Virus genome (UHGV): UHGV-1981267
DNA length: 31,152 nt
Reading direction: 5' to 3' (one strand)
Source of the DNA: a virus
Below are positions 3,979 through 21,305 of the stretch, piece by piece. Below the pieces are notes generated by a model. That model did not search any database. It had not been told where the DNA came from and saw only the letters and a list, made by a program, of their open reading frames with translations. Position numbers and translations under genes: made by a program. Within the stretch, counting starts at the first letter, position 1; every line of letters starts with the position of its first letter.

Positions 3979-6363
3979 GTGGATATGGCAGCAGTAAAAA
4001 TCTCAGGTGTGCTGAAAGATGGTGCGGGAAAACCAATACAGAACTGCACTATTCAACTGAAGGCAAAGCGTAACAGCACCACGGTACTGGTGAACACGGT
4101 GGCCTCTGAAAATCCGGATGAAGCCGGGCGTTACAGCATGGACGTTGAGTATGGTCAGTACAGCGTCATCCTGTGGATTGAGGGTTCTCAGCCATCACAT
4201 GTTGGGACCATTACCGTCTATGAAGGTTCCAGTCCGGGGACGCTGAATGATTTTCTCGGTGCCATGACGGAAGATGATGTCATGCCGGAGGCATTGCGCC
4301 GTTTTCAGGCAATGGTGGAAGAAGCGGCACGCAACGCCGAAGCCGCCTCTCAGAGCGCAGCGGCGGCAAAGAAATCCGAAACTGCAGCGGCATCATCGAA
4401 GAACGCGGCGAAAACCTCAGAAACGAATGCAGCTAATAGTGCACAGGCGGCAGCGACCTCAAAGACTGCATCGGCAAACTCCGCGACAGCAGCCAAAAAA
4501 TCAGAAACCAACGCGAAAAATAGCGAGACAGCCGCAAAGACGAGCGAAACCAACGCAAAGTCCAGCCAGACGGCAGCGAAAACCAGCGAAACGAATGCCA
4601 AAGCCAGTGAAACTGCGGCGAAAAACAGCCAGGATGCAGCGGCCCAAAGCGAGAGTGCCGCAGCTGGTTCTGCAAGTGCGGCGGCTTCTTCTGCCACTGC
4701 ATCAGCCAACAGTCAAAAAGCTGCAAAAACCAGCGAAACTAACGCAAAGTCCAGCCAGACGGCAGCGAAGACCAGCGAAACGAATGCCAAAGCCAGCGAA
4801 ACTGCGGCGAAAAACAGTCAGGATGCAGCAGCCCAAAGCGAGAGTGCCGCAGCCAGTTCTGCAAGCGCGGCGGCTGCTTCTGCCACTGCATCAGCCAACA
4901 GTCAAAAAGCAGCAAAAACCAGTGAAACCAACGCAAAGGTGAGCGAAACAGCGGCTGCGAACTCAGCGAAAGCATCGGCAGCAAGCCAGACGGCAGCTAA
5001 AGCAAGCGAAGATGCAGCCAGAGAGTACGCAAGCCAGGCTGCGGAGCCGTATAAATATGTCTTACAGCCGCTGCCTGATGTGTGGATACCATTTAACGAT
5101 TCACTGGATATGATTACGGGCTTTTCGCCATCTTATAAAAAGATTGTTATTGGTGACGACGAAATAACGATGCCTGGTGACAAGGTGGTTAAGTTTAAAC
5201 GCGCATCAAAAGCAACTTACATTAATAAATCGGGTGTGCTGACAGAGGCTACCATTGACGAGCCACGATTTGAACGTGATGGCCTGCTTATTGAGGGGCA
5301 AAGAACGAACTTCTTCCCGAACAGTACAGACCCTTCGAAGTGGAATAAGTCAACTTCACTGGACGTTACAGAAACAGGCACAGATAGTTTCGGTTTTAAT
5401 TATGGCCGGTTTGTCGTACAGGATTCGATTGTTGGTACAAGTAAAGCGCATACCATTATCGGACTGTATTCGAGTACCGGAGGGGTTGATACTTCAGGGG
5501 ACGAAAAGTATGTAACTATATCCTGTCGGGTAAAAAGTGAAGTTGATAATATCGACGTTCGTATTTTATTTGAACATTATGATGGGGAGGTAAGGACATC
5601 AATAGGAACAGCAAGCCTGAACCTTACCACCCGCATAATTAGCAAGACAGGTCAGACAAGCCGTGTTACAGCAAGGTCTGTTAAGGATGATGCAACTGGC
5701 TGGATATTTTTTGAGGCTACATTAAAAGCAGATACAACAGAAAATACGGTTGGTGGTTTCGTCCAGTATTCTCCGGATACAGGTCAGATGGTGGCATCAG
5801 GGGATTGTCTCGATGTAACCACTCCCCAGATTGAGGCTGGTACAGGCGCATCATCTTTTATTGTTACGGGGGCTGCACCGGTAACGCGGGCAAGCGATAT
5901 AGTTACAGTCCCAATTAAGAATAATCTTTATAATCTACCTTTTACGGTTCTTTGTGAGGTACATAAGAACTGGTATAAAACGCCAAATGCAGCACCGCGT
6001 GTTTTTGATACCGGCGGTTATCAAACCGGAGCGGCTATTATTCTTGGCTTCGGTCGTTCAACAGATTACGACGGATTTCCTTATTGCGATATTGGTGGGG
6101 CTAACAGGCGGATAAACGAAAATGCATCGCTTGAAAAAATGGTTATGGGGATGCGTGTAAAGTCAGATCAGTCTACATGCGCAGTAAGTAACGGGCGTAT
6201 ATCCAGCGAAACAAAAACCACATGGTCCTGTATTCAGAACTCCGCAATTATCCGTATTGGAGGCCAGACTACAGCCGGTTTACGCCATTTATTTGGTCAT
6301 GTCAGGAATTTCAGAATATGGCACAAAGCATTGACTGATGCTCAGGTGGGGGAGTTAATCTAA
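3979..6363 (+). CDS. stf: Side tail fibre protein, mosaic: lambda Stf-like N-terminus, Ala/Ser/Thr-rich repeat shaft, unrelated C-terminal domain
   Basis: N-terminus MAVKISGVLKDGAGKPIQNCTIQLKAKRNSTT... closely matches recalled lambda Stf. Centre has KTSETNAK-type repeats. C-terminal ~400 aa is unlike lambda Stf. Confidence 0.85.
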   Translation: MDMAAVKISGVLKDGAGKPIQNCTIQLKAKRNSTTVLVNTVASENPDEAGRYSMDVEYGQYSVILWIEGSQPSHVGTITVYEGSSPGTLNDFLGAMTEDDVMPEALRRFQAMVEEAARNAEAASQSAAAAKKSETAAASSKNAAKTSETNAANSAQAAATSKTASANSATAAKKSETNAKNSETAAKTSETNAKSSQTAAKTSETNAKASETAAKNSQDAAAQSESAAAGSASAAASSATASANSQKAAKTSETNAKSSQTAAKTSETNAKASETAAKNSQDAAAQSESAAASSASAAAASATASANSQKAAKTSETNAKVSETAAANSAKASAASQTAAKASEDAAREYASQAAEPYKYVLQPLPDVWIPFNDSLDMITGFSPSYKKIVIGDDEITMPGDKVVKFKRASKATYINKSGVLTEATIDEPRFERDGLLIEGQRTNFFPNSTDPSKWNKSTSLDVTETGTDSFGFNYGRFVVQDSIVGTSKAHTIIGLYSSTGGVDTSGDEKYVTISCRVKSEVDNIDVRILFEHYDGEVRTSIGTASLNLTTRIISKTGQTSRVTARSVKDDATGWIFFEATLKADTTENTVGGFVQYSPDTGQMVASGDCLDVTTPQIEAGTGASSFIVTGAAPVTRASDIVTVPIKNNLYNLPFTVLCEVHKNWYKTPNAAPRVFDTGGYQTGAAIILGFGRSTDYDGFPYCDIGGANRRINENASLEKMVMGMRVKSDQSTCAVSNGRISSETKTTWSCIQNSAIIRIGGQTTAGLRHLFGHVRNFRIWHKALTDAQVGELI
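4552..4945 (+). repeat. In-frame tandem duplication, 189-bp unit x2 plus partial third copy, inside stf
   Basis: Unit 4552..4740 and unit 4741..4929 are near-identical by eye (63-aa repeat KSSQTAAKTSETNAKASETAAKNSQDAAAQSESAAA...), with a partial copy following. Confidence 0.8.
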
Positions 6364-10392: not shown

Positions 10393-10434
10393 ACATAATT
10401 GCCCATTATACGCGCGTATAATGGGGAATTATGT
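10393..10434. other. telRL: Telomere resolution site (telRL-like palindrome with telO core)
   Basis: 42-bp palindrome ACATAATTGCCCATTATACGC|GCGTATAATGGGGAATTATGT with one mismatch. The central 22 bp CCATTATACGCGCGTATAATGG matches my recollection of N15 telO. Immediately upstream of telN. Confidence 0.8.
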
Positions 10435-10604: not shown

Positions 10605-12512
10605 ATGAGCAAAGTAAAAATCGGTGAATTAATAAACTCACTTGTTAGCGATGTTGAGTCAATAGATAACTCTGACCGTCCTCAAGGGGAGAAAACAAAA
10701 AAAATAAAGGCTGTTGCATTAAAATTTAAAAATGCATTATTTAATGACAAGCGAAAGTTTAGGGGGAAAGGATTAGAAAAAAGAATTACAGCCAACACAT
10801 TCAATGCCTATATGAGCAGGGCCAGAAAACGGTTTGATGATAAACTTCATCATAGCTTTGAAAAAAATATACATCGCCTATCTGAAAAGTATCCTTTATA
10901 TAATGAGGAGCTATTGTCATGGCTTTCTCTACCTGCTGCCGATATTCGCCAGAGAATGTCAGCTTTACAGGCAAAATTAAAATTAATTCTCCCTCTATCA
11001 GAAGATTTATCTAATATCAGAATTGGCGATAACAAAAGTCATAACAAGTTATTGAAATTATCAAATAAATATAAAGAGTGGCAATTCGCCATTTCTGATT
11101 TAACTAGCGATAACTGGAAAGATAAGCGCGATTATTTATATAAATTACTACAGCAAGGATCTGCCTTACTTGAGGAGTTGAATCAGCTAAAAGTTAACCA
11201 TGAGATTCTCTATCATCTTCAACTAAGCCCTGCCGAACGTGCATCTATCCAGCAACGATGGGCGGACGTTCTGCACAATAAAAAACGTAACGTGGTGGTC
11301 ATTGATTACCCTAAATATATGCAAGCTATTTACGATATTATAAATAGCCCTGCTACATTAAATAATCTAAACACTCGTTCAGGTATGGCTCCTTTGGCAT
11401 TTGCACTTGCTGCATTGTCAGGAAGACGAATGATTGAGATTATGTATCAAGGTACATTTACTGTTTCTGGTAAGTATACCGTTGATTTTTTAGGCCAAGC
11501 TAAAAAAAGAACTTCTGATGATATAACCAGAAAAATATATACATTATGCGAAGCAAAAACATTTGTTTATTTAATAAATGTACTTCGCTCATGCCCAGCA
11601 GCATCTGATTTTGATGATGTCGTTAAAGGTTATGGAGATAACGACACACGCTCTGAAAACGGACGTATTAATGCCATATTAGCAAAGGCTTTTAACCCGT
11701 GGGTTAAATCATTTTTCAAAGATGACCGCCGTGTTTATAAAGATAGTCGTGCTATTTATGCCCGTATTGCGTATGAAATGTTTTTCCGCGTAGATCCTCG
11801 TTGGAAAAACGTAGATGAAGATGTTTTCTTTATGGAAATTTTAGGCCATGACGATGAAAACACTCAATTACACTATAAGCAATTCAAGCTGGCCAACTTC
11901 TCAAAGACATGGAGGCCAAATACTGGAAACGAAAATACCAGGCTGGAAGCATTGCAGCAGCTTGATGACGAAATGCCTGGATTCGCCAGAGGAGATGCCG
12001 GGGTTCGTCTGCATAACACAGTTAAGCAGCTGGTAGAGCAGGACCCCTCTATAAAAATCACGAACAGCACTCTAAGAGCGTTCAAATTTAGCCCAACAAT
12101 GATTAGTCGATACCTAGAATTTGCTGCTGATGCTCTGGGGCAATTTGTTGGCGAAAACGGACAATGGCAACTGAAAATAGATACTCCAGAAATCGTTATG
12201 CCTGACGAAGAAGAACTGGAAGCAATACCTGAACTGGCGGATGAATTATCAGAGGATGACGATCTGGATGACGACGAAATTGAGATAGAGGAAGAGGAGG
12301 AGGAAGAGGAAGAGGAAGAGAGCGTAGAAGAACAGCAACCGCCTGCACCTTCTTCGCCTGTATCTAAGCCGGTATTTAAGCCGGTGAGAAATATTGGTGA
12401 TGGCTCATACGTTGTTGAGTTTCATTATAATGGCCAGAATTATGCGTGGTCCGGCAGTGCAAACAGCCCCATGTCAGCAATGCAGTTAGCATGGCTGACA
12501 TATTTCGGTTAA
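10605..12512 (+). CDS. telN: Protelomerase (TelN-like telomere resolvase)
   Basis: 635 aa. N-terminus MSKVKIGELIN... matches recalled N15 TelN. Strong SD AGGAGAGG. Adjacent to the tel site. C-terminus carries an acidic poly-Glu tract. Confidence 0.9.
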   Translation: MSKVKIGELINSLVSDVESIDNSDRPQGEKTKKIKAVALKFKNALFNDKRKFRGKGLEKRITANTFNAYMSRARKRFDDKLHHSFEKNIHRLSEKYPLYNEELLSWLSLPAADIRQRMSALQAKLKLILPLSEDLSNIRIGDNKSHNKLLKLSNKYKEWQFAISDLTSDNWKDKRDYLYKLLQQGSALLEELNQLKVNHEILYHLQLSPAERASIQQRWADVLHNKKRNVVVIDYPKYMQAIYDIINSPATLNNLNTRSGMAPLAFALAALSGRRMIEIMYQGTFTVSGKYTVDFLGQAKKRTSDDITRKIYTLCEAKTFVYLINVLRSCPAASDFDDVVKGYGDNDTRSENGRINAILAKAFNPWVKSFFKDDRRVYKDSRAIYARIAYEMFFRVDPRWKNVDEDVFFMEILGHDDENTQLHYKQFKLANFSKTWRPNTGNENTRLEALQQLDDEMPGFARGDAGVRLHNTVKQLVEQDPSIKITNSTLRAFKFSPTMISRYLEFAADALGQFVGENGQWQLKIDTPEIVMPDEEELEAIPELADELSEDDDLDDDEIEIEEEEEEEEEEESVEEQQPPAPSSPVSKPVFKPVRNIGDGSYVVEFHYNGQNYAWSGSANSPMSAMQLAWLTYFG

Positions 12513-12553: not shown

Positions 12554-12683
12554 TGACCTACCTCGCCTGCCCCCTGCAAAGGGCAGAAGTAACGGAGGAA
12601 ACGCGGCTGCAACCACAGACATCACCGCCCCGACTGCGAGGCTTCCCTTCTCTAAGAAGGGCATAAATTCGGGCTGGTCAACC

Positions 12684-13457
12684 CTATTTATTGGTGATTT
12701 CTGCTGGCTTTAGCTGCGCGGATAACTGTTCAAGTTTTTGAACTGCCAGTTCAAAATGCGCGGGTAACGCCTTTTCCAGATCAGAGTTAATATCGGTGAT
12801 GGGTAAATCACCACACGACATACTCCGCCTACCCCCACGAACAACATCACGCAACAACTCTCGTTCATACGTGCGCATGTTCCCCAATGCCGACTCAGCA
12901 GCCGTCAAAATCCGGCGCAGTTCTGCCGTAATTGCTGGCAAATCATCAACCGTTATGGGGTTCGGGGATGGATTACGACACGCCCGACGCAAAGCTAACC
13001 ATACACCGCTAATCCAGGCATTTCGGTACTGAAAACTTTGTGCTATATCGTTAATCAGCCCTCGCAGATACTCTTTCTGCCTCCAGTTCAACGGCTCCGC
13101 TGCTCGCATTGGCTCAGGCTCGATGTAAACGTACTCTCCATTTTTGCGAATAGAGGGCAAGACTTCGTTCGTTACCCATTTGCGAAACCGCCAAGCTGTT
13201 GTGCCTTGCTTCACCGCGTCACGGCAGCGGAGAATGAGCGTGTAAAGACCTGATTCACTGATGATATTGGCTTGACCTTGACGGCCTATGTTAAACATAG
13301 ATCGCTCATCTTCATCTAATCGAGCGATAGCTTGTGTGACATTCTGGATGCTTAAAGCATTGCAAATATCATTCGCCACAAACCACGGATCGCCGTTAAT
13401 CATCACTACACGTACCTGATGCTCTTCCTGAAAGGAAAAGACTGCTAACGCGCTCAT
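12684..13457 (-). CDS. Antirepressor (Bro-N / AntA-like N-terminal domain)
   Basis: 257 aa. N-terminal FSFQ...VRVVMINGDPWFVANDICNAL is a typical Bro-N motif. Last gene of an immA-like operon. Confidence 0.8.
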   Translation of the reverse strand: MSALAVFSFQEEHQVRVVMINGDPWFVANDICNALSIQNVTQAIARLDEDERSMFNIGRQGQANIISESGLYTLILRCRDAVKQGTTAWRFRKWVTNEVLPSIRKNGEYVYIEPEPMRAAEPLNWRQKEYLRGLINDIAQSFQYRNAWISGVWLALRRACRNPSPNPITVDDLPAITAELRRILTAAESALGNMRTYERELLRDVVRGGRRSMSCGDLPITDINSDLEKALPAHFELAVQKLEQLSAQLKPAEITNK

Positions 13458-13687
13458 TCAGCCTCCTTACCGTGCAGCAATTGCGACGAGAGCGATGCTG
13501 AATATCCCTGTGCTTCGTGTGTTAACTCACACGCAATTTGAAGGAGTTTCCCTGCTTCTGAGAGATAAATCGACGCCTCACAGCTGGAGACTGTCCGATG
13601 GGCTGATGATACGAGCGCATAGACCTGAGCCAGACGTTCATCCAACGATTCCAGCAGGCCAACAGTGTTCATTTTTACCTGATTCAT
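13454..13687 (-). CDS. Hypothetical protein of the anti-immunity operon
   Basis: 77-aa ORF. Stop overlaps the antirepressor start; start overlaps the stop of the upstream small ORF. Confidence 0.55.
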   Translation of the reverse strand: MNQVKMNTVGLLESLDERLAQVYALVSSAHRTVSSCEASIYLSEAGKLLQIACELTHEAQGYSASLSSQLLHGKEAE

Positions 13688-13848
13688 GCAGCCACCTCGC
13701 GCACCGGAATACGGGCAGACAATACCAGGACAAACCGGCTGGCGAACTGGCGACGAGCTTCCCGTTCAGATGACGCGATGGTGGAAAGATGATGGATGTG
13801 TGACTTTTTGTCTGTGCGAACGACTGCCGCAAATTTGAATTTGAACAT
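13684..13848 (-). CDS. Small ORF (54 aa), possibly Icd-like cell-division inhibitor
   Basis: Hand-translated MFKFKFAAVVRTDKKSHIHHLSTIASSEREARRQFASRFVLVLSARIPVREVAA. SD GGAGTG upstream. ATGA overlap with next gene. Below the track's length cutoff. Confidence 0.4.
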   Translation of the reverse strand: MFKFKFAAVVRTDKKSHIHHLSTIASSEREARRQFASRFVLVLSARIPVREVAA

Positions 13849-13869
13849 GGTATGCACTCCGTTTAATTG

Positions 13870-14070
13870 GTCGTGCTACCACCAGAGTTCTCACGCTCTT
13901 GAATGGTGGTAGCCCAAGCGGGGGTGAGAATACCGGCAAACGAAGAAACCGGCCTGACCGAAGTCAGCCCCGCCTGAGCCACCATAAATCGGATATGCGC
14001 AGGTATATACACACAAAAAAACACGCTGGCGCGTGTTGTGCGCTTCGTTTATCCGGGTTCTCACGCCCGG
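13870..14070 (-). ncRNA. Structured leader / candidate small regulatory RNA of the immA operon (P4 CI / N15 CA RNA-like)
   Basis: On the transcribed strand: GUGAGAAC (from 14057..14064), then UUCUCACCCC (13921..13930), then GUGAGAAC (13887..13894) inside a 10-bp stem (13875..13913). The middle element is complementary to both others. Confidence 0.4.
14012..14035 (-). terminator. Intrinsic terminator inside the immA leader
   Basis: On the minus strand: CACGC-GCCA-GCGUG hairpin followed by UUUUUUUGUGU. Confidence 0.5.
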
Positions 14071-14145
14071 CTGCGGAATTTGCCGCAGCGGAGTAACTTT
14101 ACCGTCAAAACGACGCACACGTCAATAATTTGCAAAGACATTTTA

Positions 14146-14165
14146 CCCCGTGACCAGTCACGGGG
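14146..14165. promoter_or_regulatory. 20-bp palindrome CCCCGTGAC-CA-GTCACGGGG between the upstream gene cluster and the immA promoter region
   Basis: Near-perfect inverted repeat. Could be an operator or a terminator for the gene ending at 14227. Candidate TTGACG -35 elements lie just downstream on the minus strand (about 14100..14130). Confidence 0.4.
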
Positions 14166-14226
14166 ACAGGTGTTTTTATAGTTTGCTTGAACGAGTGATC
14201 AGAAGTTGATCGTTAATCAAAGGCCA

Positions 14227-14514
14227 TTACGGATTAAGAGAGTGGAAATACCTAACTAACTTACCGGCATCATCACATTTTTCTTTATCTTCTTCCTTAA
14301 CATAGCCGCGACAGAAGGCTGAATAAAATTTCGCATTTTCAGAAGCAAAAGCAGCCGTCGAAAGGAGCAGTTCTTTGCATGATTCTTTTGATGCAGCATC
14401 GGGATTATTTTTACATGCAAGCTCCGCTGATGAGTTAATAACAGAAATGCTATCTTCCTGGGCATAAACCGCAGCAGAAAAGGCAAAACATAAAACCAAA
14501 ATAAAACTCTTCAC
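14227..14514 (-). CDS. Small secreted cysteine-containing protein, unknown function
   Basis: GTG start at 14514 preceded by AGGAG. Predicted signal peptide MKSFILVLCFAFSAAVYA. Four Cys in the mature part. Confidence 0.55.
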   Translation of the reverse strand: MKSFILVLCFAFSAAVYAQEDSISVINSSAELACKNNPDAASKESCKELLLSTAAFASENAKFYSAFCRGYVKEEDKEKCDDAGKLVRYFHSLNP

Positions 14515-14541
14515 TTTATCTCCTGTAACAGTTATCACAAC

Positions 14542-14937
14542 TCAATCAACTTTTTTAGCATCAGCCATACGCTTCAACCAGTAATCAACAATCGGCTGCT
14601 CATCCACAGAATGTTTACCAGGTATAACTCGCCAGCTATCTTGCGAAAATCTGCCGTACTTACGCGGGAATAGGCCTTTCTTTATCTCCCGCCATGTACT
14701 AGGAAAACCATCCACAAAAGTACCAATTAACAGGAGAGGGACAAAAATCAGAGCTACAAACCATCGTGCAAGAAAGTGTTCAACAACAACATTTTCACCG
14801 TTGTAGTAATACGCATACGCATCCAATATGCGAATTTTCCTTACCTTAAAAATAGCCTTATGCTGAGAACGACTTAACTTGATACGAATGTATCCCTTAT
14901 CCAAAGGGGATTCGTATTTGTATGATTGAACAGCCAT
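14542..14937 (-). CDS. Hypothetical protein with one hydrophobic segment
   Basis: Track ORF 14542..14949. ATG at 14937 lies 2 nt after the upstream gene stop (coupled). Confidence 0.45.
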   Translation of the reverse strand: MAVQSYKYESPLDKGYIRIKLSRSQHKAIFKVRKIRILDAYAYYYNGENVVVEHFLARWFVALIFVPLLLIGTFVDGFPSTWREIKKGLFPRKYGRFSQDSWRVIPGKHSVDEQPIVDYWLKRMADAKKVD

Positions 14938-15270: not shown

Positions 15271-15462
15271 TTACTCCCCGTTCACCGAAAAATCACGATA
15301 GAAACGTTTCCACATACGATAAGTCTGCGCGAGTTGTTCACCACGAAACATCGCCTTCCTGGCCTTCATGTTTTCCTTGTGAGACTTTCGATCTATGAAC
15401 CAAAACCATTGCTGGAACACACAAAGCAAGAGACACAAAGATAATATCCACTGATTACCCAT
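15271..15462 (-). CDS. Possible small membrane protein
   Basis: Internal Met of track ORF 15271..15579. Hydrophobic segment WILSLCLLLCVFQQWFWFI. Overlaps repA stop by a few nt. Confidence 0.3.
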   Translation of the reverse strand: MGNQWILSLCLLLCVFQQWFWFIDRKSHKENMKARKAMFRGEQLAQTYRMWKRFYRDFSVNGE

Positions 15463-18400
15463 AGAAAGCGCCCTGCTCTTCGTAGCTGCATGGGCTATTC
15501 CCGGTAATGTATTCACGTAACCGCCGCAGTTCATTGCTGGATAAGTGATCCATGAACTCTGTGAGGTACAGAGATGCAAACGTCATAGCTATGCTGGCTG
15601 ATGACCATGATGACATAGTGGCCAGCTCCTCACCGGAAAGCGCACTCATCGCCCAGGACTCAGGTACAACCACTGGCAACACAGCCAAAGCCTCAGAAAT
15701 TACTGAATGAGGGGCGTTTTGAACCTGCTCGTTTGTGGATCGCGTTTTATCATCCATATATATATTGAGATCCAAATCGCGATCCATTTCGATGGCGGTC
15801 TTCTCGGCTTTACGCGTTTTCAGGGTTAGGCCATCTTTCTGACGCTGAGCAAGAATATCCAGCATAAATGCCGCTGATTCAGGCTCAACAAAACGCAAGG
15901 TTGGACGCTTATCGCCGTCTCTGCCGCGACGTTTACCTGTTTTAAGGCCAAGAGAGTCGCAAATGTTTTTAAACAACGCTTCCGGCACTTTAGGCTTCCC
16001 TTTTGGCGTCATAAAACCACCAATGTGCAGAACGTTATTCAACAGGTCACGGCGTTCGGCTGTCATGAGGTTATCTCGAGCGAATTTGAGACGCTCCTGA
16101 GTCGCCTCGCCGGTCATAGTCTCAGGGTTGATACCGCAGTCGATAAAGTACTGCCGGAGAGTTGCTGATTTAAGCGCATAGAAACCGCGCGCCCCGACTT
16201 CAACAGTAGGAGTAGCTTTTACCTTGTAGTCGATTATTCCAAGGAATTTAGTTTTAAAGACATCATCAGCCTGCTCGCGAGTCATCGCGGTCACTACAAA
16301 ATATTGCCACTGTCCCGCCTGACGGTATGCGTAGGTAAAATTGATGGCTGCTTCTTCCCGGTCGTAACGACGAGCTGTTACCTCATCTAAAAGCATTGTT
16401 TCATAGCGGCGAATTTTGTCTCGAGCACCATCGAAATAGAATTTCAGCGTGCCTTCTTCAACCGGTAGTTTCAGTTCGTTCTCAATATCCCAGCGGACAA
16501 GTTTTGCTTGTTCTTCAAGCGTCAGCGCGCGTTTTTTTAGCAGTTCTTCACGCTCTGATTCTTGTGGAGTTTCTGTATTGAGATGCAGATCCAGTGTCTG
16601 TTCCCACACAATATCCCGCGCTTCTTTACGCAGATCTTTACCGATATCATTCGCAGCATAATCGGTGGCCAGCGGCGATACCTTATAACCGTCGCTGTGC
16701 ATGATGCAGATCATGTTGCTGGCGTAGTCGTTACGCGCAGACGCTTCAATTGCGGCTGCTTTAATTTTCATCCTGGTAAAGTCGGTATTGGCCACCCCCA
16801 TTGATATACGGTCGCCATCGAAAACGACATCCGTCAGTTCACCGTTCATGCCTGCGGTAGCAAGCAATGCCTGGGCGAATGCTCGTTCTATTTTTTGCGG
16901 GTCAGTTTCACGTTTTGCGCGAGCTTTATCAAAGCCGATAATAAATTCTTTTGCTGTACGGTCGCGGCGTAGCATTTGCACTGCGTCGCTGGGTACAACT
17001 TCACCACAGAACATGCCGAAATGACGGTCAAAATGTTTTTGCTCAATTGACACACCGGATGAAATAGACGGGCTATAAATCAGGCCGTCGTATTTTTTGA
17101 CCATCTTTTTCGGTTGATTGGTAAATGCTTCAACTTCTGGCTCTGGTTTGTTTTTCTGGTTTACACACAGAAATTTCTTACCAGGAAAATGCATTCTCAG
17201 GGTGGCGGTCACATCTTCTGCAAAGGTGGAGCTGTCGGTGGCCAACATGATTTTTTCGCCATTCGATACAGCTTTCACCACCTCGGTCATAATGCGATCT
17301 TTTTCTGTATAAAAAACCCGGATTGGCTCACCTGTTTCGCGGTTGCGAAGATCAACAGGTAATTCAATTACGTGGATCTGCAGCCATGCCGGTAAACCTA
17401 GTTCTTCACGGCGTTTCATAGCCAGTTCAGCTAGGTCAACCAGCAGATCGTTCGCATCAGCATCCACCATTATTGGGTGTTGTTCCGTTCTGGCCAGCGC
17501 GTCAATTAACGTATTGAATACAGCCACCGGGTTTTCCATAGCCCGACCGGAAAGAACGGCACGTAGCCCTTGCGTGGCCTCGTCAAAGCCAAAATAGTCG
17601 TGCTGGCGCATCAATGGTTGCCAGCAGTTTTTAACAATCGAGTTTATGCAGATGGTCAGTTTACTGGCGTATGGAGCCATTTCCTGATAGCCAGGGTCCT
17701 GATAGTGCAGGATATCGGCTTTTACACCTTTTCCTTCTGTCATCATTTCCCACAGGCCACCAATAAGGGAAACACGGTGAGCAACAGAGATACCACGTTC
17801 TGAGCTATGCATTAAAGGTCGTAACAATCCAGTAGATTTGCCGGAACCCATACCAGCACGAACGATGACTATCCCCTGTAGTGATTGCACATACTTCAGG
17901 ACGTCATCGGTCATTACCGAAGTTTCAAAACGCTTATAGGTGATATGTTGAGGACGTTTATTGGGATCAGTTATTCGTTCGCTGAATGAGCGCGGAGCCT
18001 GGGCAATACGGCACTTTTTATTCAGGCGACGGGCAATGTGGTCTTTTACCGTAGCGCGATAGATATTTTCCAGCCCAATTTCACGCAGGACGATGCAGAA
18101 CATGTTAAATAAGTCTGACGGACTGTTAGGAACCGGACAGGTTAGCATGCCAATATCCACTGCTCTCAGCAGCTCTTTGGCAAAAGTACGACGGTTATCC
18201 CGCTTAATTGTCTTCAGGCGGTTGAGCGTCAGAGATAGCAAATCAGTGCCAGTTTTCAGGCGGTTTGCAGTTGCAAACAGTTGACGTGCTGTTTCACGAA
18301 GTCCACGTAGTTTGTGCAGGTCGTTGAAGTCACTGCACTCCATTTGCGGATCGTCTTCAAAAGTTGGATAGACGCAGCGGACATCGTTGAATTTCGATAA

Positions 18401-19450
18401 GATTTCATAGCCAGTCCGCAGGCCGGTATTCCCTTTTCCTTCTGTAGCTGATTTCCGGTCATTATCCAGTGCGCAGGTGATTTTTGCCGCCGGGTACATG
18501 TTTACCAGTTGTTCCACAACATGAACCATGTTGTTAGCGGATACAGCGACAACCACAGCGTCAAAGCGTTTATCTTTTTTCGTGGCAAGCCAGATGGATG
18601 CACCAGTAGCAAAACCTTCTGTAACAGCGATGTTTTGCGCCCCTTTCAGCTCACCGATAACAAAGCAGGCACCGACGAAATCGCCGCTGGTTACGGCGCT
18701 GGTCTGGTATTTTCCACCTTGTTTGTCGATTCGCTGCCAACCAACAATACGACCATCGTAACGACCGTCCAGGTGAGCCAGAGGGATAGACATATACGTG
18801 GTTGGCCCCCTGCTCCATTTTGCGCTGTCGTGACTGGTCACGCGACGCACATCACACGAATTAAAAACGTCACGAATACCTTTTTTAATCGCATATGGCC
18901 ATGAGCCGTCTTCTGCAGGAGCATGTTCCCAAGCACTGTGGAATGCCAGCCATCCCAGCAAACGTTCATGGTCCATTTGGTTGTTTTTCAGGTCATTAAT
19001 TCGTTTTTGTTCTTCACGGCGACGACGTGCTTCGGCCTGACGTTCTATTCTTGCCCGTTCTTCTTCCGGTTGTGCGACCACGGTCGCATTATTCCGTTGT
19101 TGCTCACGGCGATATTCAGAAAACAGGAAGGAGAAACCGCTCCATGAGCCAGCATCGCTGCCTTTATGGACGAAGTTAATGAACGGGTAATCAATCCCTT
19201 TGCTGTGTTCCAGCCGGGAGTAAATTTCTACGCGTCCTTTGAGGCTCTTCTCGAGAGCTTCTGGAGATGTTTTATTGTATGAAGAGTAACGCTCAACACC
19301 CCCGCGAGGGTTGAGTTGGATGTTGTCGGAACAGGCAGACCAGTTGATACCAGCCATCTGTGCCAGCTCGGTTAGTTCATCCCGTGCTGCTTCAATTAGC
19401 GAGAACGGATCGCTGCCAAAGCGATCCGCATAGAAATCGTTTAATGTCAT
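15455..19450 (-). CDS. repA: Replication protein RepA (primase plus helicase, N15 RepA-like)
   Basis: 1331-aa ORF. Walker A GMGSGKS in the central helicase region. Size and position next to cB as in N15. Confidence 0.9.
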   Translation of the reverse strand: MTLNDFYADRFGSDPFSLIEAARDELTELAQMAGINWSACSDNIQLNPRGGVERYSSYNKTSPEALEKSLKGRVEIYSRLEHSKGIDYPFINFVHKGSDAGSWSGFSFLFSEYRREQQRNNATVVAQPEEERARIERQAEARRRREEQKRINDLKNNQMDHERLLGWLAFHSAWEHAPAEDGSWPYAIKKGIRDVFNSCDVRRVTSHDSAKWSRGPTTYMSIPLAHLDGRYDGRIVGWQRIDKQGGKYQTSAVTSGDFVGACFVIGELKGAQNIAVTEGFATGASIWLATKKDKRFDAVVVAVSANNMVHVVEQLVNMYPAAKITCALDNDRKSATEGKGNTGLRTGYEILSKFNDVRCVYPTFEDDPQMECSDFNDLHKLRGLRETARQLFATANRLKTGTDLLSLTLNRLKTIKRDNRRTFAKELLRAVDIGMLTCPVPNSPSDLFNMFCIVLREIGLENIYRATVKDHIARRLNKKCRIAQAPRSFSERITDPNKRPQHITYKRFETSVMTDDVLKYVQSLQGIVIVRAGMGSGKSTGLLRPLMHSSERGISVAHRVSLIGGLWEMMTEGKGVKADILHYQDPGYQEMAPYASKLTICINSIVKNCWQPLMRQHDYFGFDEATQGLRAVLSGRAMENPVAVFNTLIDALARTEQHPIMVDADANDLLVDLAELAMKRREELGLPAWLQIHVIELPVDLRNRETGEPIRVFYTEKDRIMTEVVKAVSNGEKIMLATDSSTFAEDVTATLRMHFPGKKFLCVNQKNKPEPEVEAFTNQPKKMVKKYDGLIYSPSISSGVSIEQKHFDRHFGMFCGEVVPSDAVQMLRRDRTAKEFIIGFDKARAKRETDPQKIERAFAQALLATAGMNGELTDVVFDGDRISMGVANTDFTRMKIKAAAIEASARNDYASNMICIMHSDGYKVSPLATDYAANDIGKDLRKEARDIVWEQTLDLHLNTETPQESEREELLKKRALTLEEQAKLVRWDIENELKLPVEEGTLKFYFDGARDKIRRYETMLLDEVTARRYDREEAAINFTYAYRQAGQWQYFVVTAMTREQADDVFKTKFLGIIDYKVKATPTVEVGARGFYALKSATLRQYFIDCGINPETMTGEATQERLKFARDNLMTAERRDLLNNVLHIGGFMTPKGKPKVPEALFKNICDSLGLKTGKRRGRDGDKRPTLRFVEPESAAFMLDILAQRQKDGLTLKTRKAEKTAIEMDRDLDLNIYMDDKTRSTNEQVQNAPHSVISEALAVLPVVVPESWAMSALSGEELATMSSWSSASIAMTFASLYLTEFMDHLSSNELRRLREYITGNSPCSYEEQGAFYG
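15736..15786. other. Candidate replication origin element inside the repA 3' region
   Basis: Inverted repeat TGGATCGCG ... CGCGATCCA flanking the AT tract CATATATATATT. Three GATC sites within about 50 bp. Confidence 0.35.
19073..19088. other. sopC-like centromere palindrome (inside repA coding sequence)
   Basis: TGCGACCACGGTCGCA: 7-bp inverted arms with 2-bp spacer. One base per arm different from the F sopC core TGGGACC-AC-GGTCCCA as recalled. Confidence 0.7.
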
Positions 19451-19695: not shown

Positions 19696-20292
19696 TCATC
19701 TACCCTCAACCATGAATGATTTGATCGTTCCGACTATTTGGTGAACAAATTCAAGATCGCTTTTCCTGAAGATGGCGCGTTGTGAGTTTGTTCCATCCAG
19801 ATAGTAATTTTCATCATCAAAACGGGCCAGGCGCTGGATAGTGATATTTCCTGCAGTATCACGAACCAGAACATCCTCGCCGGGGACCAGTTCCAGCGCA
19901 GAATCGACCAGGAGAAAATCGCCTGGCTGATAGTTTCCCTGCGTAAGATTGCTGATAGTTAACGCATACACAGTATTGCGCTGGCTGATGAATGGCAGGA
20001 ATCGCTCAGTATTTGGAACCTGTCCCGGCTTCCACTCTTCATCCGGCCCACTTTCAGTTGTGCCAATAACAGGAATGCGATCAGGGTCATATTCTGTCCC
20101 ATATAGCACCCAATGCACTGGCTTGCGTAAGCACTTAGCCAGGGCAATACCTATCTCCAGTGACGGCATTACGTCGCCACGTTCTAAGTTTTGGACGCCT
20201 GCTATAGAGATATCGACAGCCTCAGCAACTTCTCGCAACGTCAGCTTCATCTCTAAACGGCGTGCTTTCAGTCGTTCGCCTCGTGTTTTCAT
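19696..20292 (-). CDS. cB: Prophage repressor CB (HTH plus LexA/S24-like C-terminal domain)
   Basis: 198 aa. N-terminal HTH (LTLREVAEAVDISIAGVQNLERG). C-terminal domain typical of CI/LexA-type repressors. Divergent from cro. Confidence 0.88.
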   Translation of the reverse strand: MKTRGERLKARRLEMKLTLREVAEAVDISIAGVQNLERGDVMPSLEIGIALAKCLRKPVHWVLYGTEYDPDRIPVIGTTESGPDEEWKPGQVPNTERFLPFISQRNTVYALTISNLTQGNYQPGDFLLVDSALELVPGEDVLVRDTAGNITIQRLARFDDENYYLDGTNSQRAIFRKSDLEFVHQIVGTIKSFMVEGR

Positions 20293-20314: not shown

Positions 20315-20356
20315 TTATAGCTGGCTATAAAATTTATTTATTATAGCTGGCTTTAA
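20315..20356. promoter_or_regulatory. immB operator repeats between cB and cro
   Basis: TTATAGCTGGCTATAA (20315..20330, inverted arms TTATAGC / GCTATAA) and a second copy TTATAGCTGGCTTTAA (20341..20356). TATAAT at 20372..20377 precedes the cro ATG. Confidence 0.5.
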
Positions 20357-20383
20357 TTGTTGTTTATTGTTTATAATAACAAC

Positions 20384-20605
20384 ATGAAACCAGAAGAACT
20401 TATTCGCCATTTTGGCAGTGTAGAAAAAGCAGCGGCAGGGGTAGGTGTAACACCCGGAGCTGTTTACCAATGGTTAACCGCTGGAGAGATTCCTTCATTG
20501 CGGCAAAGCGATATTGAAGTTCGTACTGCTTATAAGCTGAAGAGTGACTTTACAACTCGGCGGGTAAAGCAGTCGATTAAGGAGAGTCGTAAGCGTGGAG
20601 CTTGA
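20384..20605 (+). CDS. cro: Cro-like HTH regulator
   Basis: ATG at 20384 gives MKPEELIRHFGSVEKAAAGVGVTPGAVYQWL... (HTH). No SD and a -10 hexamer just upstream suggest a leaderless mRNA. Track ORF begins at TTG 20357. Confidence 0.7.
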   Translation: MKPEELIRHFGSVEKAAAGVGVTPGAVYQWLTAGEIPSLRQSDIEVRTAYKLKSDFTTRRVKQSIKESRKRGA

Positions 20606-21305
20606 GTATATACGCAGCTGCGTCTCTACGGCATTGGCTGATGTTCATTATCGCCAGCGTGGCATTCTGGAGGTCCAGCTTGAGCAGATGCGTCTCGGTA
20701 GGTCAGGACGGTTTAACAATAAACCAGTCTGGTCAATCAGTGTGGGGGATGATAACTCATACGAAGTGTCCGTTCCTGCTGAGCCGGTTAGATTCCACCA
20801 GGGGAAAACATTTAAACAATCATCAATGTTGCTCACTGATATTGATTTTCAGAGCGCCAGCTGGCGCAGGGCTATTGGTCAGTTGAATAACGAGGAATCA
20901 GCCTGGCTTTATTATTGCTACGGATGCAAGCCTGATTACAACAATGATGTGATTGTTTGTCAGTGGTTATGGCTTGATTTTCTGGTTGCTCATTCGGGGG
21001 GCGGCTTTAAAAAAATGAAGGCCTCCACGAAAAAAGCCATGCGGAAATTGATTTATTACGCGGCACAGCAGGTTAAATCAGAACTTACGTGTGCTGAAGC
21101 AGTTGATGAGAGAGAACAGGACAGGCATCTGAGTTTTCTACTGAATATATCTATTGATAGCTGGAGACAAGATTATAAAGAGCGCTGGCTTTTAATTAAG
21201 TCGCGATGTCTGAGCTTAAATCGAACTGCATTATTAAATGCGGCGGAGAAGCGCAGTGAAATCATCAAACGCCATCGGGCAGGAAGTGCCATTCTGCCTT
21301 TGTAA
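20595..21305 (+). CDS. Possible late-gene antiterminator (Q-like), otherwise hypothetical
   Basis: 236-aa ORF with GTG start overlapping the cro stop. Cys cluster YYCYGC...C. Position after cro as recalled for N15 Q. No sequence match could be verified. Confidence 0.4.
   Translation: MELEYIRSCVSTALADVHYRQRGILEVQLEQMRLGRSGRFNNKPVWSISVGDDNSYEVSVPAEPVRFHQGKTFKQSSMLLTDIDFQSASWRRAIGQLNNEESAWLYYCYGCKPDYNNDVIVCQWLWLDFLVAHSGGGFKKMKASTKKAMRKLIYYAAQQVKSELTCAEAVDEREQDRHLSFLLNISIDSWRQDYKERWLLIKSRCLSLNRTALLNAAEKRSEIIKRHRAGSAILPL

What the first reader, a model, noticed from the sequence alone, without database searches (positions are those of the whole stretch)
13684..14165. immA-like anti-immunity leader with a three-part complementary sequence set and an internal terminator
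On the transcribed (minus) strand, the 8-mer GUGAGAAC occurs twice (from 14057..14064 and 13887..13894). Between them lies UUCUCACCCC (from 13921..13930), complementary to both. The downstream copy sits in the loop of a 10-bp stem, and an intrinsic terminator lies between the first and second elements. This mirrors the seqA/seqB/seqC logic of P4 CI RNA and the N15 CA RNA that controls antirepressor expression. A 54-aa ORF (possibly Icd-like) begins right after the structure and is coupled to the downstream genes.
Basis: partly seen in the sequence, partly recalled or inferred. Interest (0 to 1): 0.6.

Follow-up and report, generated by a model that had tools for sequence, protein, structure and literature searches.

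The report
N15-type antirepressor operon RNA switch
This is the leader of the anti-immunity (antirepressor) operon of an N15-like linear plasmid-prophage of E. coli, controlled by a small C4/CI-type antisense RNA cut out of its own transcript; the system is already known, and this copy differs only in carrying the recognition sequence of satellite phage P4 instead of that of N15.

Summary
On the minus strand GUGAGAAC lies at 14064..14057 and 13894..13887, UUCUCAC at 13930..13924, an intrinsic terminator at 14037..14013, and an Icd-like ORF at 13848..13684. Rfam finds isrK/seqA (68 bits), c4-a1b1 (49 bits) and C4 antisense RNA (82 bits) here. The locus is syntenic with N15 immA, and Icd, AntA and AntB are 94, 62 and 73% identical to the N15 proteins.

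The triple alone is not beyond chance: shuffled windows give about 1.3 such triples. Homology and covariation carry the case. In 33 N15-like leaders the three elements change together in at least five classes, while the scaffold stays 78-92% identical.

- A second co-varying triple. The loop of C4 hairpin 2 (13948..13937) pairs with 14051..14043 and with 13865..13857, which covers the icd Shine-Dalgarno, as in P1 c4.
- The seqC stem shares an arm with the C4 closing stem, so the two folds exclude each other.
- The window's seqA/B/C are identical to those of P4, not N15.

Verdict: a new member of a known kind. Interest is modest, apart from the modular specificity code.

The parts
14146..14165 (-). 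Perfect palindrome CCCCGTGAC-TG-GTCACGGGG, 20 nt upstream of the -35 hexamer. Role unknown: either a terminator that insulates the operon or a protein operator.
   Evidence: Read. The inner arms are conserved in all N15-like leaders. It folds as an 8-bp hairpin (-15.5 kcal/mol, z -3.1) but has no U-tract.
14096..14125 (-). Promoter of the anti-immunity operon (Pa equivalent): TTGACG, 18-nt spacer, TAAAGT. The predicted transcription start is near 14089.
   Evidence: It is the only sigma-70-like site found in 12600..14600. It is conserved in all relatives. The isrK model match starts at 14089.
14013..14089 (-). IsrK/seqA-type short leader RNA. It consists of hairpin 1 (14089..14070), the seqA hairpin (stem 14069..14066 / 14057..14054, loop CGUGAGAA 14065..14058), element a1 and terminator t1.
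   Evidence: Rfam RF01394 isrK 68.1 bits (gathering score 50); RF03163 c4-a1b1 48.8 bits (gathering score 46.7). Hairpin 1 is 100% paired, with 4 pairs changed on both sides.
14058..14064 (-). seqA core GUGAGAA, the upstream target of seqB.
   Evidence: The A:B pairing is 86.6% paired, with covariation 0.558 against 0.12 in shuffles (0 of 500 shuffles reach it).
14043..14051 (-). a1, UAAACGAAG: the upstream target of the C4 hairpin-2 loop.
   Evidence: 9-bp duplex, -9.0 kcal/mol. It co-varies with the loop in 33 leaders: cognate -11.6 against non-cognate -5.9 kcal/mol.
14013..14037 (-). Intrinsic terminator (equivalent of P4 t1 and of the IsrK terminator): AACACGC-GCCA-GCGUGUU followed by a U-run.
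   Evidence: Its stem is invariant or changed on one side only in relatives. The corresponding site is annotated as a putative rho-independent terminator in N15 and phiKO2.
13902..13989 (-). C4-family antisense RNA (equivalent of N15 CA RNA and P4 CI RNA). It has a 17-bp closing stem (13984..13968 / 13923..13907), hairpin 1 (13967..13954), hairpin 2 (13953..13932) and a 3' tail CCAUU.
   Evidence: Rfam RF01695, 82.2 bits (gathering score 45), E 6.5e-15. Its minimum-free-energy fold equals the Rfam fold: -47.9 kcal/mol, z -6.6. The helices are 98.7% paired, with 10 pairs changed on both sides.
13937..13948 (-). Loop of C4 hairpin 2, UUUCUUCGUUUG: the second antisense module, which pairs with a1 and a2.
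13924..13930 (-). seqB core UUCUCAC, in the single-stranded junction of the C4 RNA. It is the first antisense module and is identical to seqB of P4.
13875..13913 (-). Alternative seqC hairpin: GCUACCACCA / UGGUGGUAGC plus GAG/CUC, with loop CGUGAGAA. Its 5' arm is the 3' arm of the C4 closing stem.
   Evidence: -19 kcal/mol, z -3.2. 94% paired in N15-like leaders. Compensatory changes keep it in P4, phiKO2, the Stx phage and the Ralstonia phage. It is present in the minimum-free-energy fold of the whole leader.
13888..13894 (-). seqC core GUGAGAA, the downstream target of seqB.
   Evidence: The B:C pairing is 91.5% paired, with covariation 0.645 against 0.128 in shuffles (0 of 500 shuffles reach it).
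13857..13865 (-). a2, UAAACGGAG: the downstream target of the hairpin-2 loop. It contains the icd Shine-Dalgarno GGAG (13860..13857).
   Evidence: 9-bp duplex, -8.6 kcal/mol. In all 33 leaders the loop2:a2 duplex ends 7-12 nt before the icd AUG. The same arrangement is seen in P4, PY54, phiKO2, phiARM81ld, the Stx phage and the Ralstonia phage.
13684..13848 (-). icd: an Icd-like cell-division inhibitor of 54 aa.
   Evidence: NCBIfam NF033153, 67 bits. 94% identical to N15 Icd. 50% identical to the first ORF after seqC in P4.
13454..13687 (-). antA homologue (77 aa). Its start overlaps the icd stop (ATGA).
   Evidence: 62% identical to N15 gp31. Matches phrog_10889, annotated anti-repressor. 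phiKO2 Gp28 is annotated as similar to N15 AntA.
12684..13457 (-). antB homologue (257 aa, Bro-N domain). Its start overlaps the antA stop (ATGA).
   Evidence: Pfam Bro-N, 74.7 bits. 73% identical to N15 gp30. Matches PHROG anti-repressor Ant families.

Best explanation
The region is the regulatory leader of the secondary-immunity (anti-immunity, immA-type) operon icd-antA-antB of an N15-like telomere phage-plasmid.

1. A promoter at 14125..14096 starts transcription near 14089.
2. Most transcripts probably stop at the intrinsic terminator (14037..14013). This yields a 77-nt IsrK/seqA-type RNA.
3. Read-through transcripts contain a tRNA-like C4-family element (13989..13902). It is excised to give a stable RNA of about 80-90 nt, the counterpart of N15 CA RNA, P4 CI RNA and P1 c4 RNA.
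4. This RNA carries two exposed antisense modules: the loop of hairpin 2 (CUUCGUUUG) and seqB (UUCUCAC).
5. Upstream, the modules pair with seqA (14064..14058) and a1 (14051..14043), just 5' of the terminator. This raises termination there and autoregulates the RNA.
6. Downstream, they pair with seqC (13894..13888) and a2 (13865..13857), which covers the icd Shine-Dalgarno. This blocks icd translation and, through translational coupling and premature termination, keeps antA and antB (the antirepressor) off in the lysogen.

What is shown here: the anatomy, the homology, and the covariation of both pairing modules and of the RNA scaffold. What is inferred from the homologous N15, P4 and P1 systems: processing of the RNA, the direction of the effect, and which terminator is used.

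The specificity sequence of this copy (GUGAGAA/UUCUCAC) is that of P4, not that of N15 (UCUCAAC/GUUGAGA). This phage should therefore be hetero-specific to N15 at immA.
For: - **RNA family matches.** Rfam C4 82.2 bits, isrK 68.1 bits and c4-a1b1 48.8 bits, all above their gathering scores.
- **DNA homology.** The region matches N15 cA (76.6%), phiKO2, PY54 and P4 cI.
- **Synteny.** The order repA ... leader, icd, antA, antB, then telN convergent, is the same as in N15 and phiKO2.
- **Protein homology.** Icd matches NF033153 and is 94% identical to N15 Icd. AntA is 62% and AntB 73% identical to the N15 proteins, and both hit anti-repressor PHROG families.
- **Promoter and terminator.** Both are found at the expected places.
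- **C4 fold.** Its minimum-free-energy fold equals the Rfam fold, with z -6.6. The scaffold helices are 98.7% paired, with 10 pairs changed on both sides.
- **Covariation of seqA:seqB and seqB:seqC.** Across 33 leaders the scores are 0.558 and 0.645 against 0.12-0.13 in shuffles (0 of 500 shuffles reach them), and at most 0.24 when the partner is slid.
- **Duplex energies, cognate against non-cognate.** seqB with seqA or seqC gives -8.8 to -8.9 against about -0.9 to -1.0 kcal/mol. The hairpin-2 loop gives -11.6 with a1 and -9.7 with a2, against about -5.9.
- **Position of a2.** The a2 duplex abuts or covers the Shine-Dalgarno in all 33 leaders and in six distant relatives.
- **Literature.** P4 CI RNA is processed from the leader and causes termination by pairing with seqA and seqC. 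IsrK is the structural homologue of seqA (PMC4825925; PMC3632133). Control of the N15 antirepressor by a small processed RNA is the title finding of Ravin et al. 1999, cited. That paper is not held, so its details rest on my memory.
Against: - No expression data exist for this element. Processing, RNA ends and the sign of regulation are all transferred from homologues.
- In Gifsy-1 the homologous short RNA acts as an activator, not as a passive target.
- Thermodynamic co-folding of the C4 RNA with either target shows no net gain: -0.5 and -0.8 kcal/mol. The interaction must therefore be a loop-loop kissing contact, which that model cannot represent.
- seqC lies 39 nt upstream of the AUG and does not itself touch the ribosome-binding site.
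- The three-part repeat by itself is within chance expectation.
Confidence: 0.82

Rival explanations
1. IsrK-type activation logic. The abundant short terminated leader RNA (14089..14013) is the active regulator. By pairing in trans with the seqB and loop-2 region of read-through transcripts, or of the processed C4 RNA, it opens an inactive long-range fold or titrates the repressor RNA. This switches ON translation of the downstream genes, as shown for Gifsy-1 IsrK. It could coexist with the repressor model as the counter-acting arm.
For: - isrK scores above its gathering score.
- The minimum-free-energy fold of the whole leader pairs seqA and a1 with seqB and loop 2 in cis (-104.9 kcal/mol, z -5.4). 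This corresponds to the inactive 'structure A' helix b-I of the IsrK paper.
- Region 14069..14043 is almost continuously complementary to 13945..13919.
- In Gifsy-1, short IsrK in trans activates translation of the read-through mRNA.
Against: - In N15 and P4, the closest relatives by synteny and sequence, the processed C4-type RNA is the immunity or repressor factor.
- The Gifsy-1 mechanism needs translation of an ORF across the C4 region. Here that ORF has no conserved frame or length in relatives, and icd has its own Shine-Dalgarno.
Confidence: 0.3
2. Purely P1-like control. The C4 RNA acts only by blocking icd translation at seqC and a2, with Rho-dependent polarity on antA and antB. The upstream seqA/a1 copy and the intrinsic terminator are merely a decoy or an attenuator independent of the RNA.
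For: - a2 covers the icd Shine-Dalgarno in every relative.
- icd, antA and antB have overlapping stop and start codons.
- The two-module design matches the a'/b' design of P1 c4. This comparison rests on my knowledge of Citron and Schuster 1990 and the review, and was not tested on the P1 sequence.
Against: - seqA and a1 co-vary with the C4 modules as strictly as seqC and a2 do, so the upstream site is under selection for pairing.
- In P4, termination at the homologous t1 depends on CI RNA and seqA. This rests on my memory of Briani et al. 2000, which is cited but not held.
Confidence: 0.2
3. The middle element lies in a protein-coding gene (an 'Ash'/cA repressor protein), and the repeats are incidental.
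For: - ORF 14024..13863 hits Pfam PF10554 Phage_ASH (40.4 bits).
- It is annotated 'ash family protein' in the near-identical plasmid.
- N15 and P4 records annotate a cA/cI protein in this position.
Against: - The length of the region varies by non-multiples of three, and stop codons interrupt the homologous frame in most relatives.
- Substitutions follow RNA pairing, with compensatory changes.
- The Rfam C4 score is 82 bits.
- The literature states that the P4 immunity factor is an RNA.
Confidence: 0.02
4. The repeats are a chance coincidence with no function.
For: Shuffled windows contain 1.3 such triples on average. GTGAGAA is not over-represented in the window.
Against: Three elements change together in at least 5 classes across 33 leaders and 6 distant relatives. 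The Rfam matches also argue against chance.
Confidence: 0.01

Closest known systems
Phage-plasmid N15 immA anti-immunity operon and its CA RNA (Ravin, Svarchevsky and Deho 1999)
   Same: - The genomic position between repA and telN is the same.
- The order is the same: promoter, seqA hairpin, terminator, C4-type RNA, seqC hairpin, icd, antA, antB.
- The leader scaffold is about 85% identical.
- Icd, AntA and AntB are 94, 62 and 73% identical.
   Different: - All three recognition elements are replaced. N15 has CUCUCAAC / GUUGAGAA / UUCUCAAC; the window has GUGAGAAC / UUCUCAC / GUGAGAAC.
- The second module also differs. N15 has ACAAGAAG / CUUCUUGU / ACAAGA; the window has UAAACGAAG / CUUCGUUUG / UAAACGGAG.
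- The two RNAs are therefore predicted to be hetero-specific.
Satellite phage P4 immunity: CI RNA with seqA, seqB and seqC
   Same: - The isrK-type leader, terminator, C4-type RNA and seqC hairpin are homologous (77% DNA identity; Rfam hits in both).
- seqA, seqB and seqC are identical in sequence to the window's.
- The first downstream ORF is Icd-like, 50% identical.
- The second module is also present in P4: UUCACAGG / CCUGUGAA / UUCACAGGAGG.
   Different: - In P4 the cassette is the primary immunity system and controls the replication (left) operon. Here it controls an antirepressor operon.
- P4 has about 90 extra nucleotides between the terminator and the RNA.
- The hairpin-2 loop module differs, so predicted cross-pairing is limited to the seqB site.
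P1/P7 immI: c4 antisense RNA, icd and ant
   Same: - A C4-family RNA is cut from the leader of an icd-antirepressor operon.
- There are two antisense modules and two target sets.
- The downstream target overlaps the icd ribosome-binding site.
- Specificity differences give heteroimmunity (review text; Rfam family RF01695).
   Different: - The P1 sequence was not examined here: it was not retrieved by BLAST or tblastn.
- N15-type leaders carry an intrinsic terminator between target set 1 and the RNA, a feature shared with P4 and IsrK.
Gifsy-1 IsrK / orf45 (STnc1160) / anrP locus of Salmonella
   Same: - An isrK-family short RNA ends at an intrinsic terminator.
- Read-through RNA contains a C4-like processed RNA.
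- There is a long-range cis helix between the seqA region and the C4 region.
- An antirepressor gene lies downstream.
   Different: - In Gifsy-1 the short RNA was shown to activate translation, through an ORF that overlaps the C4 region.
- Here no conserved ORF spans the RNA, and the first gene is icd.

Membership tests
Rfam RF01695 C4 antisense RNA | Covariance-model score at or above the gathering score of 45 bits. | tested here: met
   82.2 bits, E 6.5e-15, full-length match to model positions 1-87 at 13989..13902.
Rfam RF01695 C4 antisense RNA | Long closing stem enclosing two hairpins, supported by covariation. | tested here: met
   The minimum-free-energy fold reproduces it. On 33 leaders the closing stem is 100% paired, and hairpin 1 has 4 of 5 pairs changed on both sides.
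Rfam RF01695 C4 antisense RNA | Exposed segments complementary to targets upstream and downstream on the same transcript. | tested here: met
   seqB pairs with seqA and seqC. The hairpin-2 loop pairs with a1 and a2.
Rfam RF01695 C4 antisense RNA | Excised from the precursor transcript (by RNase P in P1 and P4). | not testable with these tools
   Only the tRNA-like stem followed by CCA (13906..13904) is visible.
Rfam RF01394 isrK / P4 seqA RNA | Score at or above 50 bits; two hairpins followed by an intrinsic terminator; a promoter directly upstream. | tested here: met
   68.1 bits at 14089..14016. Terminator and promoter found.
N15-type immA (anti-immunity) operon | Location between repA and telN on a telomere phage-plasmid. 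| tested here: met
   RepA-like 1331-aa ORF at 19450..15455; TelN ORF at 10605..12512; telO core at 10403..10424.
N15-type immA (anti-immunity) operon | icd-antA-antB homologues in that order, translationally coupled. | tested here: met
   94, 62 and 73% identity to N15. ATGA overlaps at both junctions.
N15-type immA (anti-immunity) operon | AntA inactivates the primary repressor CB, and the RNA prevents this in the lysogen. | not testable with these tools
   This needs genetics. Only family annotation is available.
P4 immunity system | seqA, seqB and seqC complementary elements around a processed CI RNA. | tested here: met
   The element sequences are identical to those of P4.
P4 immunity system | The cassette controls the replication (alpha) operon and is the element's primary immunity. 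| tested here: not met
   The downstream genes are icd, antA and antB, not primase or replication genes. A separate immB-like region with operator repeats lies at about 19.7-20.6 kb.
P1/P7 c4-icd-ant (immI) | Two antisense modules, with the downstream target overlapping the icd ribosome-binding site. | tested here: met
   a2 at 13865..13857 contains GGAG at 13860..13857, 8 nt before the AUG.
P1/P7 c4-icd-ant (immI) | Sequence homology to the P1 immI region. | tested here: inconclusive
   P1 was not among the blastn or tblastn hits. The relationship rests only on the shared Rfam family.

The most novel reading that the evidence does not exclude
The two short recognition modules of the C4-type RNA (seqB and the hairpin-2 loop), each with its two targets, form a modular, freely re-assorting 'address code'. 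This code sets anti-immunity specificity among otherwise near-identical N15-like phage-plasmids. I found at least 5 seqB classes and at least 7 loop classes, in 14 combinations among 33 leaders. Because this phage carries the P4 seqB/seqA/seqC module, its CA RNA and the CI RNA of P4-type satellites could cross-react at one of the two sites. That would link the lysis-lysogeny circuits of unrelated mobile elements in the same E. coli cell. The conserved alternative hairpin would act as a processing and expression switch.
Probability: 0.3. Interest if true: 0.5.

Novelty: new member of a known kind. Interest (0 to 1): 0.3.

Why it matters
The finding confirms that a tool-less reader correctly recognised a classic RNA-controlled antirepressor switch, so no new class of element is involved.

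What it adds is comparative. The scaffold of the leader is nearly frozen. Two sets of three short elements (seqA/seqB/seqC and a1/loop 2/a2) are swapped as matched sets and assort independently. This is the pattern expected if phage-plasmids are selected to escape each other's anti-immunity RNA.

It gives an experimentally easy system for studying how RNA-RNA specificity diversifies: elements of 7-9 nt, many natural alleles, and reporter read-outs. It also allows a test of whether an N15-like plasmid prophage and a P4-type satellite that share one module interfere with each other.

Finally, it flags that 'ash family protein' annotations (Pfam PF10554) over this locus are translations of an RNA gene.

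Tried and rejected
- **14-mer scan.** An exact scan for TTATGGTGGCTCAG in viral contigs returned mostly unrelated chance hits and was not used.
- **Genome scan.** The genome-contig scan with Icd gave only 2 loci.
- **Papers not held.** Mardanov and Ravin 2007 and Sabbattini et al. 1995 are not in the library. Ravin et al. 1999 and Briani et al. 2000 were not looked up and are known here only from citations. Mechanistic details of N15 and of P4 t1/t4 therefore rest on my memory and on secondary citations.
- **Co-folding.** Co-folding the C4 RNA with the short leader or with the downstream segment gave no net stabilisation. The model cannot represent kissing loops, so I treated this as uninformative rather than as negative evidence.
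- **Antiterminator idea.** I considered pairing of GCGUG in seqA with CACGC of the terminator arm. I dropped it because the other specificity classes lack GCGUG.
- **LexA box idea.** I considered whether the upstream palindrome is a LexA box, since one relative reads CTGT-N8-ACAG. The window reads CCGT...ACGG, and the site lies about 66 nt upstream of the start, so this is unsupported.
- **Operator idea.** I considered whether it is a CB operator. Its half-sites differ from the TTATAGC-TG-GCTATAA repeats at 20315..20368.
- **Over-representation.** Window-level over-representation of GTGAGAAC or GTGAGAA is not significant.
Full report
**Context.** The window is part of an N15-like linear plasmid-prophage of E. 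coli.
- It carries a TelN protelomerase ORF (10605..12512, +) and an intact telO core at 10403..10424.
- It carries a 1331-aa RepA-type ORF (19450..15455, -).
- The finding region is 99.9% identical to plasmid pF16EC0617-5 (CP088379.1), 93.8% to phage PhiR46_1 and 76.6% to N15.
- The finding lies between repA and telN, where N15 and phiKO2 have their secondary immunity (immA) operon.

**Check of the observation.**
- GUGAGAAC lies at 14064..14057 and at 13894..13887.
- UUCUCACCCC lies at 13930..13921.
- An intrinsic terminator lies at 14037..14013.
- A 10-bp stem (13913..13904 with 13884..13875), plus three inner pairs, places the downstream copy in an 8-nt loop.
- A 54-aa ORF at 13848..13684 is Icd-like (NCBIfam NF033153, 67 bits). 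It is 94% identical to N15 Icd.
- Its stop overlaps the start of a 77-aa AntA homologue (62% identical). That gene in turn overlaps the start of a 257-aa Bro-N AntB homologue (73% identical).

The observation needs some qualification.
- The complementarity is 7 bp, not 8-10.
- The three-part set alone is not statistically remarkable. Dinucleotide shuffles of the window contain 1.3 such triples on average, and 69% contain at least one.

**What it is.** Three Rfam families match above their curated thresholds, in the expected order on the minus strand.
- c4-a1b1: 14102..14050, 48.8 bits.
- isrK: 14089..14016, 68.1 bits.
- C4 antisense RNA: 13989..13902, 82.2 bits.

According to the literature, IsrK and C4 are the structural homologues of what the P4 field calls seqA and CI RNA. 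N15, P1 and P7 use structurally similar systems (PMC3632133; PMC4825925). A promoter-like site, TTGACG-18-TAAAGT at 14125..14096, sits 7 nt upstream of the isrK match and is conserved in all relatives.

**Covariation test.** I collected 48 loci from IMG/VR through the Icd protein and aligned 33 leaders, 31 of them distinct.
- The scaffold is nearly invariant. Leader positions outside the recognition elements are 78-92% identical to the window, and local helices are 98.7% paired with 10 pairs changed on both sides.
- The three short elements change together, in at least five classes:
  - GUGAGAA / UUCUCAC / GUGAGAA (the window);
  - UCUCAAC / GUUGAGA / UCUCAAC (N15);
  - GUAGGAA / UUCCUAC / GUAGGAA;
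  - UCGCAA / UUGCGA / UCGCAA;
  - UUGGAAC / GUUCCAA / UUGGAAC.
- Formal counts give 86.6% (A:B) and 91.5% (B:C) paired cells. Covariation scores are 0.558 and 0.645 against 0.12-0.13 in column shuffles (0 of 500 shuffles reach them), and at most 0.24 when the partner is slid.
- Cognate duplexes average -8.8 to -8.9 kcal/mol, against about -0.9 to -1.0 for non-cognate pairs.

There is a second triple.
- The 12-nt loop of C4 hairpin 2 (13948..13937, UUUCUUCGUUUG) is complementary to UAAACGAAG (14051..14043). That element lies between the seqA hairpin and the terminator.
- The loop is also complementary to UAAACGGAG (13865..13857), which contains the icd Shine-Dalgarno GGAG, 8 nt before the AUG.
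- This module also co-varies, in at least seven loop types. Cognate energies are -11.6 and -9.7 kcal/mol against about -5.9 for non-cognate.
- In all 33 leaders the downstream duplex ends 7-12 nt before the icd AUG.
- The same arrangement is visible in P4, phiKO2, PY54, Aeromonas phiARM81ld, a Ralstonia P2-like phage and an Stx phage.

The RNA therefore has two antisense modules and two target sets. To my knowledge and per the review, this is the design described for P1/P7 c4. The downstream set occludes the ribosome-binding site of the first gene.

- The 5' arm of the seqC stem (GCUACCACCA) is the 3' arm of the C4 closing stem plus its CCA tail. The mature C4 fold and the seqC hairpin are therefore mutually exclusive.
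- Within N15-like leaders the hairpin is 94% paired, but with one-sided changes only.
- In more distant relatives it is kept by compensatory changes on both arms: GCUAUCGCC/GGCGAUAGC in P4, GUCACCACC/GGUGGUGAU in phiKO2, CCACCGC/GCGGUGG in the Stx phage, and GGCCCGCC/GGCGGGCC in the Ralstonia phage.
- The minimum-free-energy fold of the whole 241-nt leader (-104.9 kcal/mol, z -5.4) uses this hairpin. It also pairs seqA and a1 with seqB and loop 2 in cis.
- This corresponds to the translationally inactive 'structure A' shown experimentally for the homologous Gifsy-1 isrK transcript.
- The function of the switch here is not resolved.

- P4 has seqA CGUGAGAAC, seqB AUUCUCACCCCCG and seqC GCGUGAGAAC. 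These are identical to the window's elements and different from N15's.
- The loop module differs between P4 and the window. Predicted cross-pairing is therefore full at the seqB sites (-9.2 kcal/mol) but weak at the loop sites (-3.4 to -7.1, against -8.6 to -14.0 for cognate).
- The same seqB core also occurs in a Ralstonia phage. The match may reflect a limited sequence space rather than a specific link to P4.
- The first ORF after seqC in P4 is 50% identical to the window's Icd. The whole cassette from promoter to icd/kil is thus one homologous module with different cargo downstream.

**Modularity.**
- The five seqB classes and the loop classes occur in 14 combinations among the 33 leaders.
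- The relatives closest to the window in scaffold (L008 and L014, 91.7% identical) carry a different seqB class but the same loop class.
- Loci with 100% identical Icd carry four different seqB classes.

The modules therefore re-assort or turn over faster than their surroundings. This is what selection for hetero-specificity would produce. I did not find this described for N15-like elements in the papers I could search, but the library is incomplete.

**Most likely mechanism.**
1. Transcription starts near 14089.
2. Most transcripts end at the terminator and give the 77-nt seqA/IsrK-type RNA.
3. Read-through transcripts fold the tRNA-like C4 element, which is excised.
4. The mature RNA kisses seqA and a1 on nascent transcripts. 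This raises termination and autoregulates the RNA, by analogy with P4 t1 (from my memory of Briani et al. 2000, cited).
5. It also pairs with seqC and a2. This blocks icd translation and, through coupling and premature termination, keeps antA and antB off.

Shown here: the anatomy, the homology and the covariation of both modules. Inferred: processing, the sign of the effect and the terminators used.

The main rival is the Gifsy-1 logic, in which the short RNA is an activator. It may coexist as the counter-acting arm. A protein-coding reading of the middle element is rejected. ORF 14024..13863 hits Pfam Phage_ASH, but its frame and length are not conserved. The substitutions follow RNA pairing instead.

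**Verdict.** The element is a new member of a known kind: an N15-type immA leader with C4/CI-type RNA control. Interest is modest (0.3). The parts worth following up are the two-module specificity code, the sharing of one module with P4, and the conserved alternative hairpin.

Noticed in passing
window 14146..14165 (- strand): A perfect palindrome, CCCCGTGAC-TG-GTCACGGGG, lies 20 nt upstream of the -35 of the operon promoter. Its inner arms are conserved in all N15-like relatives, and one relative changes both arms together. It folds as an 8-bp hairpin but has no U-tract. It could be a terminator that insulates the operon from repA-operon read-through, or a protein-binding site; this is not resolved.
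   Followed up: partly
window 13863..14024 (- strand): A 53-aa ORF lying over the C4 RNA hits Pfam PF10554 Phage_ASH (40 bits). It is annotated 'ash family protein' in the near-identical plasmid CP088379.1. Its frame and length are not conserved in relatives, so the protein family seems to be partly built on translations of an RNA gene.
   Followed up: yes
window 10393..10434: The 22-bp telO core CCATTATACGCGCGTATAATGG sits intact inside a palindrome with 21-nt arms, upstream of telN. This is an uncut telRL site, so the window represents the circular or phage-form junction, or an assembly across the telomeres.
   Followed up: partly
window 4530..5018: A 189-bp tandem repeat (2.6 copies, 85-93% matches) lies inside the 794-aa ORF 3979..6363. 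This corresponds to repeats of 63 aa, probably in a tail or fibre protein.
   Followed up: no
window 20315..20368: A 26-bp direct repeat containing the palindrome TTATAGCTGGCTATAA lies between the divergent ORFs 19696..20292 (-) and 20595..21305 (+). These are probably the operators of the primary immunity region (immB).
   Followed up: no
window 12287..12320: An (AGAGGA)n repeat encodes a run of glutamates near the C-terminus of the protelomerase.
   Followed up: no
L006 (P4, NC_001609.1 8177..8332): The first ORF downstream of seqC in P4 is 50% identical to the window's Icd. The whole cassette from promoter through seqA, terminator, C4 RNA and seqC to icd/kil is therefore shared between P4 and N15-like phages, with different downstream cargo.
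   Followed up: partly
window 14227..14538 (- strand): The 103-aa ORF just upstream of the leader is annotated 'Spackle exclusion protein' in phage PhiR46_1. Here it matches only a PHROG family of unknown function (phrog_26765) and no Pfam or NCBIfam model.
   Followed up: partly
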